In this document: piece by piece, positions 2,613 to 60,286 of the stretch
How the letters are laid out: each line of letters opens with the position of its first letter
Numbering within the stretch: position 1 is the stretch's first letter
Assembly (NCBI GenBank): GCA_905205065.1
Contig: CAJLCI010000001.1
Coordinates: 124,690 to 188,689, forward strand
Direction of reading: 5' to 3'
Length of the DNA stretch: 64,000 nucleotides
DNA from: an uncultured Eubacteriales bacterium
GTDB lineage: Bacteria; Bacillota; Clostridia; Oscillospirales; CAG-272
Position numbers and translations under genes: made by a program
Notes under the pieces: model-generated
The model's input: only the letters and a program-made list of their open reading frames with translations
Databases searched by the model: none
Told to the model about the DNA's origin: nothing

Positions 2613-4049
2613 CTATATCCTCCTAAATTTTGTTCCCTCTTTTGTATCCTCAAGAATAATTCCCTTTTCAAGAAGCTCTGCGCGTATGCGGTCAGCTTCG
2701 GCATAATTTTTAAGTTTTTTCGCCTCTGCACGAGCTTCTATTTTCGCCAGAATATCGGCGTCGGCATCTCCGTTCGCACCATTGCGATCCGCAAGCAGAC
2801 GCTCCGCAGCTTTTAACAAATCAAGGGAAAGCACAGAATCAAAATCTGCAAGCAGCCGAAGCTTAGACGCGGAGCTACAGCCGGATTTCACAACATCGTA
2901 AAGCGCTGTCACCGCAAGAGACGTATTCAAATCATTATCCATTGCAGCGGCAAACTCCGCGCGCAAAGTGCCGGCTTCTTCCGCATCTGAAGCATCGATC
3001 TTCTCAGGAATTACGGAACAATCCGAAAGCAGAACAGCAATACGGGAAACAAGCTTTTCATACGCTGTTGCGGCATTGTCAAGCGCATCCCACGAAAAGA
3101 CAAGCACTTTTCTGTAATGCGAGCAAAGGCAGAAAAGACGATATACCATCGGATCATATCCTTTTTCACGCAAAAGAGAAACGGTAAGAAATTCTCCACT
3201 TGATTTGCTCATTTTTCCGTCATCGTTATTCAGATGGAAAACATGAAACCAATAATTACACCATTTATGTCCGAGATAGGCCTCGCTCTGGGCAATTTCA
3301 TTCGTGTGATGGGGAAAAGCATTGTCGATCCCCCCGCAGTGAATATCCAGATATTCTCCCAGAGTCGAGATACTTATAGCGGAACACTCGATATGCCATC
3401 CCGGATAGCCAAGTCCCCACGGACTTTCCCATTTCAGCTCCTGATCCTCAAATTTTGATTTGGTAAACCAAAGCACAAAATCGCTTTTATTTCGCTTGTT
3501 GTCGTCGCGCTCTACGCCGTCGCGTACTCCCACCTCAAGATCTTCACTGTCATGCTTATTAAAGACGTAATACTCATCAAGCTTTGAAGTATCAAAATAA
3601 ATATTTCCGCCGGCCTCGTAAGCATATTCTTTTTCAATAAGCCTTCCGACCATTTTTATATAGTCGGATATACGCGAGGTTGCCGGAACCACAGTATCCG
3701 GCCACCGAATATTCAGACTGCCGCAGTCCGAGACAAATGCATCCGTATAATATTTTGCAATTTCCATAACGGTTTTATGCTCTCTCTGCGCGCCTTTAAG
3801 CATTTTGTCCTCACCCTCGTCAGCATCGCTCGAAAGATGTCCGACATCGGTGATATTCATCGTGCGCTTTACGTCAAATCCGATATAACGCAGGTATTTT
3901 TCGAGGACATCTTCCATTATATATGTTCTAAGGTTTCCTATATGAGCAAAATGGTAGACCGTCGGTCCGCATGTATACATTTTTACAATTCCCGGCTCAT
4001 GCGGAATGAATTCGTCTTTTTTTCTTGTAAGAGAATTATAAAGCTTCAT
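2613..4049 (-). CDS. cysS: Cysteine--tRNA ligase
   Basis: The 478-aa ORF carries the class I HIGH-type motif (YHFAHIGNLRTY) and KMSKS, with CysRS family architecture. Confidence 0.95.
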   Translation of the reverse strand: MKLYNSLTRKKDEFIPHEPGIVKMYTCGPTVYHFAHIGNLRTYIMEDVLEKYLRYIGFDVKRTMNITDVGHLSSDADEGEDKMLKGAQREHKTVMEIAKYYTDAFVSDCGSLNIRWPDTVVPATSRISDYIKMVGRLIEKEYAYEAGGNIYFDTSKLDEYYVFNKHDSEDLEVGVRDGVERDDNKRNKSDFVLWFTKSKFEDQELKWESPWGLGYPGWHIECSAISISTLGEYLDIHCGGIDNAFPHHTNEIAQSEAYLGHKWCNYWFHVFHLNNDDGKMSKSSGEFLTVSLLREKGYDPMVYRLFCLCSHYRKVLVFSWDALDNAATAYEKLVSRIAVLLSDCSVIPEKIDASDAEEAGTLRAEFAAAMDNDLNTSLAVTALYDVVKSGCSSASKLRLLADFDSVLSLDLLKAAERLLADRNGANGDADADILAKIEARAEAKKLKNYAEADRIRAELLEKGIILEDTKEGTKFRRI

Positions 4050-8045: not shown

Positions 8046-8419
8046 TTTTAATAAGTTTGACTTTACAAGCGCCAGATACTGCATTTTTCAGTGTGAGTTT
8101 ATTTTCCCACTGAAACGCAAAGAAACTAATACGCCAGTAATACTCCAGGTATAATTACAATCGTTTATAAGATCCGATCCGTGTCTTGCAAACTTGTCGA
8201 AGCGTTACTTAAATTTAAATCAAATTTAATTCTTAACAAACTTTTGAGAATAATCTTCATAACTACAGCAATAATATTAATCAGAACAAGAAGGTCAGAA
8301 AGCAATCTTAGGATCAGCCCGTAATTTCAGGCTACAGAAATTCTGTGGTTTGTATATCCTGCTTCGTTCGTGATATTTCAGTTAATTAAACCCACAATTA
8401 TTAAAAGGAGTCCAATTAC

Positions 8420-8560
8420 AGTTAAGGGATACAGACCTCCCCGGCTGCCCTGAGTTTGAGCCGCTATACGCGTCTCACCACGGCATACCGGGAAGTTGGG
8501 AGTACAAATTGGCAGTGGAGGACACCTACCTTGCGAGAGCAGGGTTTTTAATTGCTGAAT
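8420..8560 (+). ncRNA. Candidate structured RNA or R-element relative upstream of the sipL-like gene
   Basis: Nested pairings cctcc..ctgcc / ggcag.ggagg enclose about 80 nt. A ccttgc-GAGA-gcaggg hairpin followed by a T-run comes next. The 3' part (ggaggacacctaccttgcgag) resembles the R2/R5 3' ends. Confidence 0.35.
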
Positions 8561-8720
8561 ACACGGCGAAGCGGGTTTTTTTATTTTCCATGAATATTTC
8601 CGAACTGTTGTGCATAATATGAAACAAGACCATTTTTTATACAGCAGCTCCGCAACTTACACAGCTTATACTCATCTGCAGTTGCTTTTAGTTATACTTA
8701 TAGTAAAAGGAGAATTCAAA

Positions 8721-55882: not shown

Positions 55883-56878
55883 ATGTCTGTTGTATCAGAT
55901 TACAAAAAAGTTAAAGAAATATACCAAAAGGCCGCGGAAAAAGGATGGGTAATTCCCTGCATCTGTTCCGAAAATCTCACTACAACCGAAGCAATCTTTT
56001 CAGCGGCGGAGGACTTTGCCGTCTCGCACGAACTCGATTCCGTTCCGGTTACAATTGCAATGACGGTAAAATACAGCCACCGCCCGCAAGCTACATACTA
56101 TACACACAGCCGCCGCGCTGACATCGGTCTCCGCTGCTTCCGCGCGGACGCCGAAATACTTTCGGAGGTATATCCCCACGTTACGGCTATGCTTCACTTA
56201 GACCATGTTCAGCCGATTGACGACAGTGACCTGCTTAACAGCGATCTTTCGGGCTACGCTTCGATAATGTATGACGCTTCAGCCTTTCCCTTTGAGCAAA
56301 ATATAAAAATGACTTCGGATTTTGTAGATAGGATGAACGACAAAATCCTCATAGAGGGAGCATGCGACGAAATATACGACGCGGGCGGATCGACTCACAA
56401 TTCAATCACAACAGCGGAGGACGCAAAACGCTTTATAGACGAAACCCGAGTTGATTTGATTGTATGCAATCTCGGAACAGAACACCGCGCGTCAGGAAAA
56501 GATTTAAAATATTACGGAGACGCCGCACGCAAAATCCGCGACGCTATAGGAGAAAAAATAGTCCTTCACGGCACCTCATCGGTAACGGCCGATCAGATTA
56601 AAACTCTTTTTGCCGACGGCGTATGCAAGGTAAATATCTGGACAGCGGTCGAACGCGATTCTTCTCCTGTGCTTCTCCGCTGGATGGCGGAAAACGCGTC
56701 GCTTATAGGCGGAGCCGCAGCAGTAGACAAACTGATAGAGGAAGGTTATCTCGGAAACCGCTGTAAAACAGGAGAATCCGCTTCGCTGAAATACTTCACC
56801 ACCGAAGCGCGCCAGCAGATAGTCTTTGAGGAAATGAAAAAAATAGTCAGAGCGTACTTCGATCTCTGGTACGTATAA
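55883..56878 (+). CDS. Class II ketose-bisphosphate aldolase family protein (FBA/tagatose-bisphosphate type)
   Basis: LHLDH, GTEH and HGTSS are zinc- and phosphate-binding motifs of class II aldolases. Confidence 0.8.
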   Translation: MSVVSDYKKVKEIYQKAAEKGWVIPCICSENLTTTEAIFSAAEDFAVSHELDSVPVTIAMTVKYSHRPQATYYTHSRRADIGLRCFRADAEILSEVYPHVTAMLHLDHVQPIDDSDLLNSDLSGYASIMYDASAFPFEQNIKMTSDFVDRMNDKILIEGACDEIYDAGGSTHNSITTAEDAKRFIDETRVDLIVCNLGTEHRASGKDLKYYGDAARKIRDAIGEKIVLHGTSSVTADQIKTLFADGVCKVNIWTAVERDSSPVLLRWMAENASLIGGAAAVDKLIEEGYLGNRCKTGESASLKYFTTEARQQIVFEEMKKIVRAYFDLWYV

Positions 56879-56915
56879 TGCTTTATCTTTTTTTCGATTT
56901 TTTTTGACAAAATGC

Positions 56916-56944
56916 TTGACAAACCTTTAATCGTGTGATATAAT
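56916..56944 (+). promoter_or_regulatory. Consensus sigma-A promoter (TTGACA-17-TATAAT) with no downstream CDS
   Basis: Both hexamers are perfect and the spacer is 17 bp. The next plus-strand gene is 4 kb away. Confidence 0.65.
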
Positions 56945-56949
56945 TATTA

Positions 56950-57372
56950 ATAGATAGAAATATTATCCATTTAGCTTTTGCTTTTTAATTAAATACCGTC
57001 TGAACCGGCAGGACATAAAAGAACGCCGGCAGATTTGTTGGATTCCCGTCCAACATCTCCTGATATTCATGTGCCGAACACACATAAATACCCACCGGAA
57101 TCCCGGCGCCGACGTGAGATATATTATAACATACTTTATTTTATATTTCAAGAGGTTTGCCGAAAAAAACCGAATTAGAGGACAAACGGTTTTGACTCTC
57201 AACCTATGTACCGTCTTTGGTCGTTGAAGTTTTAAAGCCTTTTCCCTCATTTTCAAGTTTTTGGATTCTTAAACCTTTTTTCAAAAAGGTTTAAGCCTCC
57301 GCAGGATTATTCTTCGATTTGTATTATACAAAATCGGGGCGTTGTGTTTGTGCACATGCCCCGATTTTTTTG
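56950..57372 (+). ncRNA. Candidate non-coding transcript of about 420 nt (promoter to terminator) of unknown family
   Basis: It is bounded by the 56916 promoter and the 57333 terminator. The longest plus-strand ATG ORF is under 10 codons. Perfect local hairpins include tgttgga/tccaaca and cttaaacctttt/aaaaggtttaag. Confidence 0.45.
57333..57372 (+). terminator. Strong intrinsic terminator
   Basis: The 8-bp GC-rich stem atcggggc/gccccgat is followed by TTTTTTT. Confidence 0.8.
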
Positions 57373-57503
57373 TTTTCTCTTTTTTAAATCATTCAAAAGA
57401 AAAGGACGTGATTTATTTTGTCAGAGCCAAGCGGAAGCATCTGCCGCAGGCAGAGCTGTCTCAGTCCGGTTAAAATTGAATAGAATTGACTGTCAGTTTT
57501 GAA

Positions 57504-57538
57504 CCGGAAATTAATTTCCTTCGGAGTTAATCTTCCGG
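57504..57538 (+). repeat. Module X1 (stem ccggaa/ttccgg enclosing TTCGGAGTTAATC)
   Basis: It aligns with X2 at 58490 and shares the upstream ttttgaa. Confidence 0.7.
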
Positions 57539-57892
57539 GCAAAAAAGCCGCAGCGGAGCATGAGAGGTTCCCGCCTCCCATGTCCGAACTCGGAGTTGCC
57601 GAACCAACGCCCAAGTCACTTCTGCGGTAACTGATAGTTTAACACATTCTTTGCGTTTTGTCAACACCTTTTAACGATAACAATCTCAAGCTGTCTTAAG
57701 TTGTTTCAAGTCGTTTCAAGTCGTTTTTAATTTGGTAAAACCGGGCCAACTGAATTGTGTCGGACTTTAGTGCCGTGAAATAAAAACCAGAAGTGCGCTG
57801 TCAGCTTTAGCTTTCAGTATTTAATACGAAAAGTTTGCAGTGTAATTCAGAGCGATACAATTTGATTTAGGATAATTCAATATGTTTCAGAA

Positions 57893-58006
57893 TGATTTAA
57901 TTTGATTCAGTTTGATTCAATAGATTCGGTCTGATTCAATAGATTTAATCTGATTCAATAGATTTAGTCTGATTCAATAGATTCAGTTTGATTCAGCGTG
58001 ATTTTA
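57893..58006. repeat. 19-bp tandem array of 6 units (ctgattcaatagatttagt and variants)
   Basis: The units are contiguous head to tail and were indexed by hand. Confidence 0.9.
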
Positions 58007-58134
58007 GCTGCATGCGGCGCGAGCCGCGGCTACCAATGCAGCCGAAAGTATCACATTGCAAAGCTTGTCAGCATTGATAAAGTGTTGAGGAAAAGTGTTT
58101 TTTCCCATAGCGTGTACCACATGCTATAACACGT

Positions 58135-58160
58135 CGCGTAAAAGAAGCCGCGCAAGCGGC
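58135..58160 (+). repeat. Module Z1 (cgcgtaaaagaa plus hairpin gccgc-GCAA-gcggc)
   Basis: It aligns with Z2 at 58989. The hairpin has a GNRA loop. Confidence 0.7.
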
Positions 58161-58288
58161 GTCTGTCGCAGAAACTGTTTACCTGTTTACTCAAAAAGTT
58201 AAACGTAAAAGGTAAACGTAATTGGAAGTCTACGCGTTGCGATATTCCACAATTCCGAGTTTTACGCCTGCCGGTATTTTTCCCGGAG

Positions 58289-58323
58289 GTTGACTTATCC
58301 GGTCTGTGCCGTTGATTTGTGCC
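58289..58323 (+). repeat. Module Y1 (ttgacttatccggtctgtgccgttgatttgtgcc)
   Basis: It aligns with Y2 at 59139, 850 bp away, and more weakly with 57192-57224. Confidence 0.65.
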
Positions 58324-58489
58324 AATGTTTTTTACTGTCTGTTTATGACATCAATTTTTGATGTTGGTTTGCAGTCCGCTCTATTGGTCTCTGCCGTAAT
58401 TTCTGCATTGCGGCAGGTAACATGCGCGGCACAGCCGAATTATAATAAACATTTCTCAGGTATTTTTCTGCATAATGCTTTTTGAATCG

Positions 58490-58528
58490 CCGAGAAATGT
58501 TACTTTCTTTCGGAGTTAATCTTCTCGG
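58490..58528 (+). repeat. Module X2 (stem ccgagaa/ttctcgg enclosing TTCGGAGTTAATC)
   Basis: It aligns with X1. The stem carries an extra A on one arm, matched by an extra T on the other. Confidence 0.7.
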
Positions 58529-58847
58529 ATAAACGGAATCGCAGAGAATGCAAAAGTCAAAAAACGCACTCAAAAGCTTAAAGCTGATATAAAAGCTATG
58601 CGCCAAAAAATTAAGCTTACATCAAATTGAATGTTCGGCTTTTGTATCTCATTTATATACTTGGGGTTGTGCAAGCGGCGCTCAAGCCGCTCCTGTCTTT
58701 CGGAGCGCGCTTGCAGTCATGAATGCAAGTCATGCATGCGGAAGGTCTTCCGCCATGATACGGCGCCGGGGCGAATGTGGATTTAGGCTTAACGTTTTCA
58801 CAGCGTTAACATGTCAAACGAAATTGAAGCATCGTCGGGATACAGTT

Positions 58848-58984
58848 GAAAGACGCTGAAACGACACTGAACGCAGCTGAAGCGATGTCCGGCGCAGTGA
58901 AACATACGCCGAACGAAGTTAAAGCGGCGTTAAAGCGATGCTAAACGCAGTGAGACATTCGTCAAACGCAGTGAGACGTTCTGC
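58848..58984. repeat. Degenerate tandem array of about 21 bp (aaacgcagtgagacattcgtc and variants, about 6 units)
   Basis: The two 3' units are nearly identical. The upstream units become progressively more diverged. Confidence 0.7.
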
Positions 58985-58988
58985 ACAT

Positions 58989-59014
58989 CGTGTAAAAGAA
59001 ACCGCGCGAGCGGT
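58989..59014 (+). repeat. Module Z2 (cgtgtaaaagaa plus hairpin accgc-GCGA-gcggt)
   Basis: It aligns with Z1. The closing pair changes from G-C to A-T in a compensated way, and the GNRA loop is kept. Confidence 0.7.
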
Positions 59015-59138
59015 TACACTTCCGCAAAGTACGTCTGTTTTTAAAGCTTTAAAAGCAAAGGCCGCGCGTATTTTGTGTTGCGTTAGCCCGCAATATCAAG
59101 TTTTTTCTGTTCTGTACAGAAAATTGTTTGTCCTTGAA

Positions 59139-59172
59139 ATTAACTTATCCGGTCATGCCGTTCATTCGGCAC
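59139..59172 (+). repeat. Module Y2 (ttaacttatccggtcatgccgttcattcggcac)
   Basis: It aligns with Y1. It sits inside a 9-bp outer stem atccggtca/tgaccggat that is followed by TTTTTT. Confidence 0.65.
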
Positions 59173-59215
59173 AGTCTTCTGACTGTGTTCGTCTGGCGCG
59201 GTCTGACCGGATTTT

Positions 59216-60286
59216 TTATTCACCGCTTTCGGTTTCCGAAACATCCGTAGCTGATATATCAACAAAATCGTAAAATGCAGACATAATAGATTCCGCAAAT
59301 TTTCTTTCTGCTTCCGGAGAAAAAAGAGCTTCTTCTCTGATCTCGGAAACCGGAATATGCATTTTCAGCTCAAGATTTCCGGAGCTTTTCATTGATCTTC
59401 CGGACGGAATACATTGCAGAGGCATGCCGCAGCTTTCAAGAATCACATCGGAAACAACGGCACTCGGTATATCGTCATATTCAAGGGCAGAAGCAAGCTC
59501 AGTCATTGATACTGCGCCTTTTGTCACTCTTCCGATTCTGTCAATCTCAGCATGCAAGGACGCGGATATTTCTCCGTCCTCACATAAGATTTCAGCATGA
59601 CAGTCTCCGTCCGAGCATTTAAGCATAAGCATTACCGCAGGAACAAAAGTGTAAATAAAACGCGCAAGCTCCCAAACCGCAACACGCCCCGACATCGTAT
59701 TAATAAGCTCTACAGAAAGCCTGTAACCGAGAATTCTGACCCGTTTAATCAAAATGTCTCGCATGCAGTCAATAAAAAACGCGGCAGGAACAGCTCGCTT
59801 TTCAAGTTTTCCGTTAAATCCCTCGCTCACATCATAAAGCATTGTATTCCGTCGAGTATAATTCCATGCCGCCGCAGGCGCCTGTATGTCGTTAAGCTCT
59901 CCCTGCGAGACAACAAATTCAGTCAAACGGCTTCCCGCGCAAAGCGAAACAGATCTTGCGTACTCAAGAAGAGCGTCGCTGACATTCCTTTGCAGTATAT
60001 TTAGGAATATAAATGCAGTTCTGCGCTCCCCGTTATAATTATAGCATCCGGCAAGCGAATTACGACACATTGAATACGTATTATCAAATACAATTATGTC
60101 ATATCTTTCTATCGTATCGCATCTCATCTGCAAATAAGAATCATATCCGACTGCAGAAAGATAACGTATAAGCGGGGTTCCTTTGCGGCATCCCGGAAGC
60201 AGCTTCTTCGCTGCCGCATTTTTGTAAATCAGTCTTCCGCCGCCGTCCGCAACAATTATCGGCGTTGCTGTTAAATCCAAATTCAT
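59216..60286 (-). CDS. Hypothetical protein with a PAS-like N-terminus and an acidic C-terminal tail
   Basis: The 356-aa ORF contains PIIVADGGGRLIYKNAAAKKLL, which resembles the start of a PAS fold. The middle region faintly resembles a degenerate GHKL fold. I recognise no confident family. Confidence 0.5.
   Translation of the reverse strand: MNLDLTATPIIVADGGGRLIYKNAAAKKLLPGCRKGTPLIRYLSAVGYDSYLQMRCDTIERYDIIVFDNTYSMCRNSLAGCYNYNGERRTAFIFLNILQRNVSDALLEYARSVSLCAGSRLTEFVVSQGELNDIQAPAAAWNYTRRNTMLYDVSEGFNGKLEKRAVPAAFFIDCMRDILIKRVRILGYRLSVELINTMSGRVAVWELARFIYTFVPAVMLMLKCSDGDCHAEILCEDGEISASLHAEIDRIGRVTKGAVSMTELASALEYDDIPSAVVSDVILESCGMPLQCIPSGRSMKSSGNLELKMHIPVSEIREEALFSPEAERKFAESIMSAFYDFVDISATDVSETESGE

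What the first reader, a model, noticed from the sequence alone, without database searches (positions are those of the whole stretch)
58014..59014. GNRA-capped 5-bp GC hairpins and compensated stem changes between repeat copies
Four hairpins share one design but differ in stem sequence. They are gcggc-GCGA-gccgc (58014-58027), gccgc-GCAA-gcggc (58147-58160), gcggc-gctcaa-gccgc (58675-58690) and accgc-GCGA-gcggt (59001-59014). Between homologous modules Z1 and Z2 the outer pair changes from G-C to A-T on both arms, while the loop stays GNRA. Between X1 (ccggaa/ttccgg) and X2 (ccgagaa/ttctcgg) an inserted A is matched by an inserted T. Double changes that preserve pairing are the classic signature of selection on RNA or DNA secondary structure rather than neutral decay.
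Basis: seen in the sequence. Interest (0 to 1): 0.65.

Follow-up and report, generated by a model that had tools for sequence, protein, structure and literature searches.

The report
Conserved mosaic of structured non-coding RNAs
The four small hairpins are real and lie in a 2.3-kb gene-free stretch that a small group of uncultured gut Clostridia keeps as a mosaic of folded RNA elements matching no Rfam family, but the real evidence for selection on base pairing is in neighbouring helices, not in the four hairpins first noticed.

Summary
All four hairpins are at the stated coordinates. Short GC-rich hairpins are about 9-fold enriched here (6 in 1.2 kb against 0.65 expected). They lie in an ORF-free 2.3-kb gap (56879-59215) between two convergent genes. 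The gap holds two paralogous ~0.9-kb modules. I recovered homologous loci from about four other lineages (75-82% identity).

- **H1 (58014-58027):** the stem is invariant and the loop is free (GCGA/AAAT/AAAC/GAAA).
- **Z1/Z2:** conserved, but they change only through wobbles or mismatches. Covariation is no better than shuffles.
- **H3 (58675-58690):** not conserved. Its two arms belong to two helices of a conserved four-way junction.
- **X1/X2:** a conserved + strand hairpin with invariant U·G pairs.
- **Neighbouring helices:** strong compensatory change occurs at 57555-57585, 58107-58127 and 58676-58768.
- **Minus strand:** two sRNA genes with conserved sigma-70-type promoters are also present.

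There is no match in Rfam, phage, plasmid or viral collections.

Verdict: a candidate new family of structured non-coding RNAs with narrow distribution. The strand is only partly resolved and the function is unknown.

The parts
56879..59215 (.). ORF-free conserved locus between the class-II aldolase gene (+, ends 56878) and a 356-aa gene with no Pfam match (-, ends 59216)
   Evidence: ORF lists and Pfam. It is 97.7-100% identical in 10 strains. Homologous loci at 75-82% identity occur in L037, L038 and the D lineage.
56990..57151 (-). Minus-strand sRNA gene 'B0'. Promoter TTGAAA-17-TATAAT at 57151-57123. The RNA runs from about 57116 to about 56990 as a multi-helix junction followed by UUCUUUUAU.
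   Evidence: The promoter is conserved in all 3 lineages that cover it. MFE is about -50 kcal/mol on the - strand against -35 on the + strand in 5 of 5 sequences. The consensus has 41 pairs, 4 of them compensatory, plus invariant G·U pairs.
57263..57372 (+). Invariant 12-bp hairpin (57268-57295) and a strong intrinsic terminator (stem 57330-57368, then a T7 run)
   Evidence: The + strand folds better in 7 of 8 sequences.
57504..57538 (+). X1 hairpin, about 15 bp, with two invariant U·G pairs and a variable loop (CUUC/UUUC/CUCA)
   Evidence: The + strand is 4-8 kcal/mol more stable than the - strand in 9 of 9 sequences. z = -2.9 on + against -1.5 on -.
57541..57664 (-). Minus-strand sRNA gene 'Y'. 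Promoter TTGACA-17-TAAACT (TG-extended) at 57664-57636. The Y-shaped RNA runs 57629 to 57547 and is followed by U6 (57546-57541). It contains the covarying hairpin 57555-57585.
   Evidence: The promoter is conserved in all 4 lineages and its spacer varies. The - strand is 5-12 kcal/mol more stable in 9 of 9 sequences. Five compensatory pairs.
57790..57848 (+). Conserved hairpin 'B2'
   Evidence: z = -2.8 on + against +1.6 on -. The + strand is favoured in 7 of 7 sequences.
57875..57996 (.). 19-nt tandem repeat (GATTCA-containing, about 6 copies); a hypervariable linker
   Evidence: The copy number differs by one unit among strains. The array has a different length in the D lineage and is absent in L037 and L038.
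58007..58042 (.). H1 domain: outer stem 58007-58013/58036-58042 with H1 (58014-58027) on top
   Evidence: All 12 stem pairs are invariant in 4 lineages, except for one C·A SNP at 58023. The loop and internal loop vary. The strand is not resolved.
58095..58132 (+). Pre-Z1 hairpin (inner stem 58107-58113/58121-58127), strongly covarying. L037 carries a roughly 105-nt apical expansion with extra hairpins.
   Evidence: Six of 7 pairs show changes on both sides. It folds in each lineage individually, and better on the + strand in 5 of 6.
58136..58169 (.). Z1 (58147-58160) inside an imperfect extended stem (58136-58138/58167-58169 and 58143-58149/58158-58164), preceded by the conserved GTAAAAGAA
   Evidence: The inner two pairs are lost in the D lineage.
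58296..58441 (+). Long hairpin at the module A/B boundary. Arms ATCCGGTCTGTGCCG (58296-58310) and CGGCACAGCCGAAT (58428-58441).
   Evidence: In the D lineage it is compact (about 17-nt loop) with G·U pairs on the + strand.
58490..58528 (+). X2 hairpin, the paralogue of X1
   Evidence: The covariance model built from X1 finds it at 31 bits. Orthologues carry U·G and G·U pairs and one A-U to U-A flip in the basal stem.
58676..58768 (+). Conserved four-way junction. P1 58676-58682/58762-58768; P2 58685-58695/58701-58711; P3 58712-58715/58724-58727; P4 58729-58743/58748-58759. It absorbs both arms of H3 (58675-58690).
   Evidence: 97% of cells paired, 4 pairs with changes on both sides, covariation score reached by 1 of 500 shuffles. 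H3 itself pairs in only 63% of cells.
58840..58980 (.). Module B hypervariable linker with 10-11-nt periodic repeats (CAGTGA-containing)
   Evidence: It is replaced by other repeats in L038 and is absent in the D lineage.
59000..59015 (.). Z2 hairpin AACCGC-GCGA-GCGGTT, preceded by GTAAAAGAA
   Evidence: The loop is GCGA/GTGA/GTAA across lineages.
59023..59077 (+). Long irregular hairpin
   Evidence: Three compensatory pairs. z = -1.8 on + against +0.8 on -.
59147..59218 (+). Terminal long hairpin (arms 59147-59160/59199-59212) followed by T6; a strong + strand intrinsic terminator
   Evidence: (I11).

Best explanation
The hairpins are pieces of a candidate new family of structured RNAs with no Rfam match: a vertically inherited, ORF-free locus found in a small clade of uncultured gut Eubacteriales.

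**What is shown**
- The 2.3-kb gap is a mosaic of conserved multi-helix domains separated by hypervariable linkers that carry lineage-specific tandem repeats.
- Many helices keep their pairing through compensatory and wobble changes.
- The locus holds two paralogous ~0.9-kb modules. Each has an X hairpin, variable linkers, a Z hairpin and a long terminal hairpin; module A also carries H1 and a covarying pre-Z hairpin.
- Two short minus-strand genes (B0 and Y) have conserved sigma-70-type promoters, junction-shaped folds and U-rich tails.

**What is inferred**
- Most of 57400-59218 is read on the + strand as one or two long structured RNAs that end at the strong terminator 59147-59218.
- In that RNA, H1 and Z1/Z2 are ordinary capping hairpins of larger imperfect stems. 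They help folding and stability. They are not GNRA-specific devices.
- H3 is a species-specific alternative pairing of strands that normally form a four-way junction.

**What is speculative**
- The ~90-nt Y sRNA is fully complementary to 57541-57629 of the long RNA. It could therefore control that RNA by antisense pairing.
- The repeat-bearing linkers are tolerated expansion segments or possibly binding arrays.
For: **No coding potential and no known family.** There is no ORF and no Pfam match in the gap. Rfam gives no family, even at E <= 10 in the window or E <= 1 in five related loci.

**Conservation.** Strains are 97.7-100% identical. Four other lineages are 75-82% identical overall, with blocks above 90%.

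**Covariation tests.**

| Segment | Sequences | Cells paired | Pairs / cells changed on both sides | Shuffles reaching it | Slid controls |
|---|---|---|---|---|---|
| 57490-57665 | 9 | 98% | 6 pairs / 11 cells | 1 of 500 / 0 of 500 | 25-45% |
| 58000-58174 | 7 | 91.6% | 8 pairs | 0 of 500 | 31-52% |
| 58660-58812 | 6 | 97% | 4 pairs | 11 of 500 (covariation score 1 of 500) | not noted |

**H1.** The stem is invariant while the loops vary (Fisher p = 5e-7).

**Expansions.** Helix apices take insertions without losing the helix: about 105 nt in L037 and 27 nt in P2 of L037 and L038. This is typical of structured RNAs.

**Strand.**
- The + strand is favoured in every or nearly every lineage for X1, 57400-57500, B2, the pre-Z1 hairpin, 59020-59085 and the long hairpins.
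- X has invariant U·G pairs that would be A·C mismatches on the other strand.
- B0 and Y are minus-strand by the same test.
- B0 and Y sit behind the only two promoter-like sites conserved in at least 3 lineages.

**End point.** Strong + strand terminators lie at 57330-57372 and 59147-59218.
Against:
- No conserved + strand sigma-70-type promoter was found for the long RNA.
- The + strand preference is partly confounded by the G+T richness of that strand.
- For H1, Z1 and Z2 the two strands fold equally well.
- Only about 4-5 independent lineages exist, and the D-lineage sequences are close relatives. Counts of cells therefore overstate the number of independent events, and the shuffle control does not correct for relatedness.
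- A·C mismatches, which would be wobbles on the other strand, also occur in several helices.
- The Z stem itself shows no significant covariation.
- The element is absent from the sister species, where the 356-aa gene is followed directly by rplS. It is therefore dispensable at that position.
- The function is not established.
Confidence: 0.6

Rival explanations
1. The Z hairpins, and perhaps H1, are minus-strand intrinsic terminators. The locus would then be a cluster of independent short transcription units and insulating terminators between convergent genes, not long + strand RNAs. Read on the - strand, Z1 and Z2 are GC hairpins followed by UUCUUUUAC.
For: - The terminator scan flags both Z hairpins on the - strand.
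- The A-tract GTAAAAGAA before Z is almost invariant in all orthologues and paralogues.
- The same UUCUUUUAY tail follows the closing stem of the clearly minus-strand B0 RNA.
- Z2 lies 200 nt downstream of the minus-strand 356-aa gene in the window.
- The minus strand folds Z2 slightly better.
- SNPs at 58023, and the L038 changes in Z1 and Z2, give G·U only on the - strand.
Against: - Clear terminators after genes in this window have 10-15-bp stems and dG of -15 to -22 kcal/mol. Z has 5-6 bp, about -9 to -12 kcal/mol with its flanks, and a z-score near 0 on the - strand.
- In the D lineage, Z1 keeps 4 of 5 pairs on the + strand (two G·U) but only 2 of 5 on the - strand, while the A-tract is still conserved.
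- The Z1 outer pair is G·U on the + strand in three lineages.
- No conserved - strand promoter lies upstream of Z1 or Z2.
- In L037 and the D lineage the locus is not next to the 356-aa gene.
- The hairpin directly adjoining Z1 is clearly better on the + strand.
Confidence: 0.22
2. The features act at the DNA level. The 19-bp and 10-11-bp periodic direct repeats would be iterons or protein-binding arrays, and the hairpins cruciform or single-strand structures of a replication origin, transfer origin, recombination site or remnant of a mobile element.
For: - The direct repeats have a helical-repeat period.
- Flanks vary among lineages, and some strains carry a mobile-element-like insertion (HTH_38, DNA methylase, SLT) beside the locus.
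- Copy number is polymorphic.
Against: - The repeats are the least conserved part. They are absent in L037 and L038 and differ in the D lineage.
- No rep, relaxase, integrase or transposase gene is adjacent.
- There is no similarity to plasmids, phages or viral contigs.
- The motifs do not recur elsewhere in the window or in sister loci.
- Conserved helices hold invariant G·U pairs and show strand-asymmetric stability, which DNA duplex or cruciform function does not explain.
- The GC skew has the same negative sign on both flanks of the gap, with only a brief neutral-to-positive stretch inside it.
Confidence: 0.08
3. The region is a decaying tandem duplication of non-functional intergenic DNA. 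The hairpins would be leftovers of old terminators plus chance palindromes.
For: - Outside the X, Z and boundary blocks, the two modules have diverged beyond recognition.
- H3 is species-specific.
- Z shows no significant covariation.
- The sister species lacks the region.
Against: - Blocks of 90-100% identity persist between lineages that are about 80% identical overall, alternating with unalignable linkers.
- Compensatory changes are far above the slid and shuffled controls in three separate domains.
- Promoters are conserved while their spacers vary.
- Hairpins are enriched about 9-fold.
Confidence: 0.07

Closest known systems
Large ornate bacterial ncRNAs of unknown or recently emerging function (OLE, GOLLD, ROOL, raiA), recalled from my own knowledge and present in Rfam
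   Same: - A long ORF-free stretch made of many conserved helices and multi-way junctions.
- Helix apices tolerate large insertions.
- Found by comparative analysis in Firmicutes and gut metagenomes.
- Not tied to a downstream gene.
   Different: - No sequence or structure match to any of them.
- Here there are two or three tandem paralogous modules, hypervariable repeat linkers and embedded antisense sRNA genes.
- The distribution is very narrow: one clade, with only 1 hit among 185,579 species genomes for the X motif.
- A single long transcript is not demonstrated.
Cis-antisense RNA pairs such as ColE1 RNAI/RNAII or plasmid counter-transcribed RNAs (own knowledge)
   Same: A short, strongly promoted, highly structured RNA (Y, about 90 nt) is encoded antisense to the 5' part of a longer structured non-coding region.
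   Different: - No origin function, rep gene or plasmid or phage similarity.
- The locus is chromosomal and syntenic.
- Transcription of the long partner across Y is inferred, not shown.
- Y is a closed Y-shaped junction, not a row of stem-loops.
Rho-independent (intrinsic) terminators
   Same: - GC-rich stem with a tetraloop.
- On the minus strand Z is followed by a U-rich tract.
- The locus certainly contains true examples at 57330-57372 and 59147-59218 (+ strand).
   Different: - Z stems are only 5-6 bp, much weaker than the terminators behind genes in this window.
- On the + strand there is no U-tract.
- H1 and H3 have no U-tract of the usual kind.
GNRA-tetraloop capping hairpins of structured RNAs
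   Same: Z2 keeps G-N-R-A in all lineages (GCGA/GTGA/GTAA). Z1 has GCAA in three lineages. H1 has GCGA or GAAA in two.
   Different: - H1 has AAAT and AAAC in two lineages, and Z1 has ACAA in one.
- No tetraloop receptor was identified.
- The retention in Z2 needs only two transitions at the N and R positions.
Repeat-bearing protein-sponge sRNAs (CsrB/RsmZ, CrcZ; own knowledge)
   Same: Short sequence motifs (GAUUCA; CAGUGA) are repeated many times in unstructured stretches between stable hairpins.
   Different: - No GGA or A-rich motif of the known sponges.
- The repeats are absent from some lineages.
- No partner protein is known.

Membership tests
Any described RNA family (Rfam 15: OLE, GOLLD, ROOL, raiA, riboswitches, sRNAs and others) | Match to the family covariance model at or near its gathering score | tested here: not met
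   Only 6S RNA at 8353-8581 passes in the window. Nothing meaningful appears at E <= 10 in 56800-59400 or at E <= 1 in five related loci.
Structured non-coding RNA (generic) | Base pairs kept through compensatory changes across homologues, above controls | tested here: met
   Cells paired are 92-98%. There are 4-8 pairs with changes on both sides per domain, reached by 0 to 11 of 500 shuffles. Slid controls give 25-54% paired.
Structured non-coding RNA (generic) | The region is transcribed | not testable with these tools
There are only indirect signs: conserved promoters on the - strand and terminators.
Structured non-coding RNA (generic) | Absence of a conserved reading frame | tested here: met
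   No ORF above 111 aa and no Pfam match. Indels of 26-27 nt and about 105 nt, and non-synonymous-only changes, occur in the best conserved block.
GNRA tetraloop hairpin | Loop stays G-N-R-A in homologues | tested here: inconclusive
   Met for Z2 (3 loop variants). Not met for H1 (AAAT, AAAC) or for D-lineage Z1 (ACAA).
GNRA tetraloop hairpin | A cognate receptor or tertiary partner | not tested
   No receptor motif was searched for systematically.
Intrinsic terminator (Z on the minus strand) | Hairpin immediately followed by a U-rich tract on the transcribed strand | tested here: met
   GCCGC-TTGC-GCGGC TTCTTTTAC and AACCGC-TCGC-GCGGTT TCTTTTAC. The tract is conserved.
Intrinsic terminator (Z on the minus strand) | Stem strength comparable to the genome's proven gene terminators, and stem kept on that strand in homologues | tested here: not met
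   Gene terminators in the window have 10-15-bp stems and dG of -15 to -22 kcal/mol. The Z2 region has z = -0.2 on the - strand. D-lineage Z1 keeps only 2 of 5 pairs on the - strand.
Intrinsic terminator (Z on the minus strand) | An upstream transcription unit on the same strand | tested here: inconclusive
   The 356-aa gene lies upstream of Z2 in the window and L038, but not in L037 or the D lineage. No conserved promoter lies upstream of Z1.
REP/BIME-type dispersed palindromes | Many dispersed copies in intergenic regions of the genome | tested here: not met
   The X, Z and boundary motifs occur only in this locus within the 64-kb window and the sister loci. The rest of the genome could not be scanned.
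Iteron-type replication origin | Conserved direct repeats next to an initiator gene, with similarity to plasmid or phage origins | tested here: not met
   The repeats are lineage-specific and absent in L037 and L038. There is no rep gene and no plasmid or phage match.
Cis-antisense sRNA / long RNA pair | Independent promoter and terminator for a short RNA antisense to a longer transcript | tested here: inconclusive
   The promoter, fold and U6 tail of Y are conserved. Transcription of the opposite strand across Y is only inferred.

The most novel reading that the evidence does not exclude
The locus encodes a new class of large (~0.9 kb per unit), tandemly duplicated, ornate + strand RNAs comparable in complexity to OLE, GOLLD and ROOL. 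Fast-evolving repeat 'expansion segments' would act as multivalent binding arrays. The RNAs would be controlled by an embedded, fully complementary ~90-nt antisense sRNA (Y).
Probability: 0.3. Interest if true: 0.7.

Novelty: new member of a known kind. Interest (0 to 1): 0.5.

Why it matters
New structured non-coding RNAs are still rare finds. Large ones have repeatedly turned out to have unusual biochemistry.

This locus offers several candidates at once in an uncultured gut clade:
- two compact junction-shaped sRNAs with textbook promoters
- a strongly covarying four-way junction
- a pair of ~0.9-kb paralogous modules

The within-locus paralogy and the lineage-specific expansions give natural 'mutants' for structure-function work.

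There is also a methodological lesson. Eye-catching GNRA hairpins pointed to a real structured region, but the statistical signal lay in less conspicuous neighbouring helices. One of the four hairpins was a decoy whose arms pair elsewhere.

Tried and rejected
- **Rfam.** Gathering and permissive searches on the window and on five related loci gave nothing.
- **Phage and plasmid collections.** blastn in distant mode gave no match.
- **Viral contigs.** Seven motif scans gave only chance hits or none.
- **Coding hypothesis for the best conserved block (58719-58859 ORF).** Rejected. Substitutions are all non-synonymous, stop positions differ, and indels are not multiples of 3.
- **'Promoter-like' TATAAT at 58441.** Reinterpreted as the tail of the 3' arm of a long hairpin.
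- **Integron attC, DGR target hairpin, group II intron domain V, dif site, DnaA boxes.** Considered from memory and dropped. The defining partners (integrase, reverse transcriptase, core motifs, skew switch) are absent.
- **Pairing of the GATTCA repeats with a loop of the B0 sRNA.** Rejected, because that loop is not conserved.
- **MAFFT alignment of X1 with X2.** It misaligns the arms. The covariance-model alignment was contaminated by reverse-strand self-hits. X paralogue comparison therefore rests on individual folds.
- **Fremin and Bhatt 2021 (PMC8040213).** The supplement held none of four locus motifs in the 200 of 408 files that could be searched.
- **Strand assignment by counting G·U against A·C in Z and H1.** Inconclusive.
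Full report
**Observation.** Z1 and Z2 are paralogous: a 30-nt block is 87% identical, and the 22-mer GTAAAAGAARCCGCGCRAGCGG occurs only twice in the window. Short GC-rich hairpins are enriched. Forty perfect hairpins (5-bp stem, at least 4 G/C pairs) occur in 64 kb. Six of them fall in 58000-59200 against 0.65 expected (P = 6e-5), and only 1 of 500 dinucleotide shuffles reaches that. Three of the window's four GNRA-looped hairpins are here. Individually the hairpins are not unusually stable: the Z2 region has z = -1.2 and the H1 domain z = -1.85.

**Setting.** The hairpins lie in a 2.3-kb gap (56879-59215) with no credible ORF and no Pfam match. The gap sits between a class-II fructose-bisphosphate aldolase gene (+) and a convergent 356-aa gene of unknown function (-) in an ordinary housekeeping neighbourhood. 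The window is identical to NCBI assembly GCA_003343545.1 over this stretch, and ten strains of the species share the gap at 97.7-100% identity.

The gap contains two paralogous modules of about 0.9 kb, at roughly 57435-58335 and 58400-59215. They are recognisably similar only in a few blocks:
- the X hairpin
- the Z hairpin with its preceding GTAAAAGAA
- a block ACTTATCCGGTC, which forms the 5' arm of a long boundary hairpin

Between these blocks lie different tandem repeats.

**Relatives.** The 356-aa protein has very few homologues. In the sister species that carries an 83%-identical protein, the gene is followed directly by rplS and the gap is absent. A motif scan of one genome per species found a single other locus, L037, in an uncultured Eubacteriales MAG. 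The contig of a third species (L038) and a metagenome scan added six more loci. Together they form about five lineages: the window species, L037, L038, and a 'D' group with L058 slightly apart. Mutual identity is 71-82%, or 85-96% within D. The right-hand neighbour differs among lineages, and one D contig carries a third module. None of the motifs occurs in viral contigs, phages or plasmids. No Rfam family matches the window locus or the relatives.

**What the comparison shows.** Conserved blocks of 90-100% identity alternate with unalignable linkers. The GATTCA repeat array (57875-57996) varies by one unit within the species. It has a different length in D and is absent from L037 and L038. 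The module B repeats behave likewise. Three domains pass a covariation test.

1. **57490-57665, 9 sequences.**
   - 98% of cells are paired.
   - Six pairs and 11 cells change on both sides, reached by 1 and 0 of 500 shuffles.
   - Slid controls give 25-45% paired.
   - Most of the signal is in hairpin 57555-57585, for example CATGAGAGG/CCTCCCATG against CACAAGAG/CTCTTGTG against CATGAGATG/CATCTCATG.
2. **58000-58174, 7 sequences.**
   - 91.6% of cells are paired.
   - Eight pairs change on both sides, reached by 0 of 500 shuffles.
   - The signal is concentrated in the pre-Z1 hairpin 58107-58127, which folds in every lineage with different sequences.
   - In L037 that hairpin carries a roughly 105-nt apical expansion made of further hairpins.
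3. **58660-58812, 6 sequences.**
   - This is a four-way junction with 97% of cells paired.
   - Four pairs change on both sides.
   - The covariation score is reached by 1 of 500 shuffles.

These numbers rest on few independent lineages, and the shuffle control ignores relatedness. The slid controls and the concentration of changes in stems, not loops, make the conclusion reasonably firm.

**The four hairpins themselves.**
- **H1.** It sits on a second stem (58007-58013/58036-58042). All 22 paired positions are identical in four lineages, while 10 of 12 unpaired positions vary (p = 5e-7). The loop is GCGA, AAAT, AAAC or GAAA, so GNRA is not required. One strain haplotype has a G-to-A change at 58023 that breaks the closing pair on the + strand.
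- **Z1/Z2.** Across 11 copies, 89% of cells pair, which is no better than shuffles. No pair counted by the tool changes on both sides. The outer pair is A-U in 6 copies, G·U in 4 and G-C in 1. In D-lineage Z1 two inner pairs are lost (GCCGT-ACAA-GAGGT). The consensus fold places Z1 at the tip of a longer imperfect stem that uses part of the A-tract.
- **H3.** It fails. Only 63% of cells pair and four of five pairs break elsewhere. Its 5' arm is the 5' strand of junction helix P1 (58676-58682 with 58762-58768; G-C/A-U and G-C/C-G covariation). Its 3' arm belongs to P2.
- **X.** It is a genuine conserved hairpin of about 15 bp with two invariant U·G pairs and a variable loop. X2 orthologues show U·G, G·U and a flipped A-U in the basal stem. 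A covariance model built from X1 finds X2 at 31 bits.

**Strand.** I compared folding energies of each element on both strands in every lineage.
- **Consistently better on the + strand:** X1, 57400-57500, the hairpin 57790-57848, the pre-Z1 hairpin, 59020-59085 and the long boundary hairpins. Shuffle-based z-scores support this for several, for example -2.8 against +1.6.
- **Strongly minus-strand:** two elements are the opposite. B0 (56990-57116) folds at about -50 against -35 kcal/mol. The Y-shaped domain 57547-57629 is better on the - strand by 5-12 kcal/mol in 9 of 9 sequences.
- **Promoters:** B0 and Y lie immediately downstream of the only two sigma-70-type sites conserved in at least three lineages, 57151-57123 and 57664-57636. 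The second keeps its -35 and extended -10 while its spacer varies.
- **Tails:** both end in U-rich tracts.
- **Unresolved:** H1 and Z are neutral in this test.
- **Gap in the model:** no conserved + strand promoter was found for the long RNA. The + strand does have strong terminators at 57330-57372 and 59147-59218.

**Rivals.**
- **Z as minus-strand terminators.** On the minus strand, Z1 and Z2 look like intrinsic terminators: a hairpin plus UUCUUUUAC, the same tail as B0. Against this, terminators behind genes in this window have 10-15-bp stems and -15 to -22 kcal/mol. D-lineage Z1 is preserved only on the + strand. No promoter feeds Z1. I give this reading about 0.2.
- **DNA-level origin or iteron.** This is unlikely. 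The repeats are the least conserved part, no initiator or mobility gene is attached, and the helices contain invariant G·U pairs.
- **Neutral decay of a duplication.** This is contradicted by the block conservation and the compensatory changes.

**Conclusion.** The region is best described as a narrow-range, candidate new family of structured non-coding RNAs. It comprises two junction-shaped minus-strand sRNAs and two tandem paralogous modules of conserved domains, probably read on the + strand. The hairpins H1, Z1 and Z2 are conserved caps of larger stems, and H3 is an incidental alternative pairing. Y is fully complementary to the opposite strand at 57541-57629, which suggests antisense control of the long RNA. 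That idea, and any sponge or scaffold role of the repeat linkers, is speculation.

Noticed in passing
window 8353-8581 (+): 6S/SsrS RNA, the only Rfam family passing its gathering score in the window (59.7 bits).
   Followed up: no
window 56990-57151 (-): A minus-strand sRNA candidate ('B0') with no Rfam match, behind a near-consensus TG-extended promoter (TTGAAA-17-TATAAT). It forms a multi-helix junction with 41 consensus pairs, 4 of them compensatory, and several invariant G·U pairs. It matches no Rfam family.
   Followed up: partly
window 57541-57664 (-): Second minus-strand sRNA candidate ('Y', about 90 nt). It has a conserved TTGACA-17-TAAACT promoter with a variable spacer, a Y-shaped fold and a U6 tail. 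It overlaps the + strand structured region in antisense.
   Followed up: partly
window 56916-56944 (+): A perfect sigma-70 consensus promoter (TTGACA-17-TATAAT with TG) lies directly after the aldolase stop codon and is also present in L038. It would drive a + strand transcript across the antisense of B0 towards the terminator at 57330-57372. Its product is unexplained.
   Followed up: no
L002 and L005, from locus position about 9400 onward (window equivalent about 56885): In two strains the aldolase side of the locus is replaced by, or separated by, a block of mobile-element-like genes: HTH_38, DNA methylase, radical SAM, DUF6273 and SLT lytic transglycosylase. The breakpoint is within a few bases of the aldolase stop codon.
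   Followed up: no
window 57929; L003, L005, L006, L007: Copy-number polymorphism of exactly one 19-nt repeat unit within the species. There is also a 3-nt indel at 58315-58317. SNP density appears lower in 57700-59216 (about 0.7%) than in 56880-57700 (about 3%).
   Followed up: partly
L038 7558-8627: In the L038 species the homologue of the 356-aa gene is split into two ORFs of 152 and 208 aa. This looks like a frameshift or pseudogene, yet the non-coding locus next to it is retained.
   Followed up: no
L077 196-278 and 697-776 (+), against 3721-3802 and 3092-3183 (-): One D-lineage contig carries a second, inverted partial copy of the Y domain and of the boundary block. The two copies flank a 559-aa protein that looks Sel1/TPR-repeat-like by eye. 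This may be an inverted duplication or an insertion.
   Followed up: no
L074 1650-1960: A third module follows module B in a D-lineage contig. Its content is different and highly structured: several GC-rich hairpins and a long hairpin GTTTCAGTGGGAG...CTCCCACTGAAAC. It matches no Rfam family.
   Followed up: no
window 57440-57454 and 57465-57508 (+): A perfectly conserved palindrome TCTGCC-GCA-GGCAGA lies here. A long + strand helix also uses AACCGG, which is part of the X1 5' arm, so the two could be mutually exclusive alternative structures upstream of X1.
   Followed up: no
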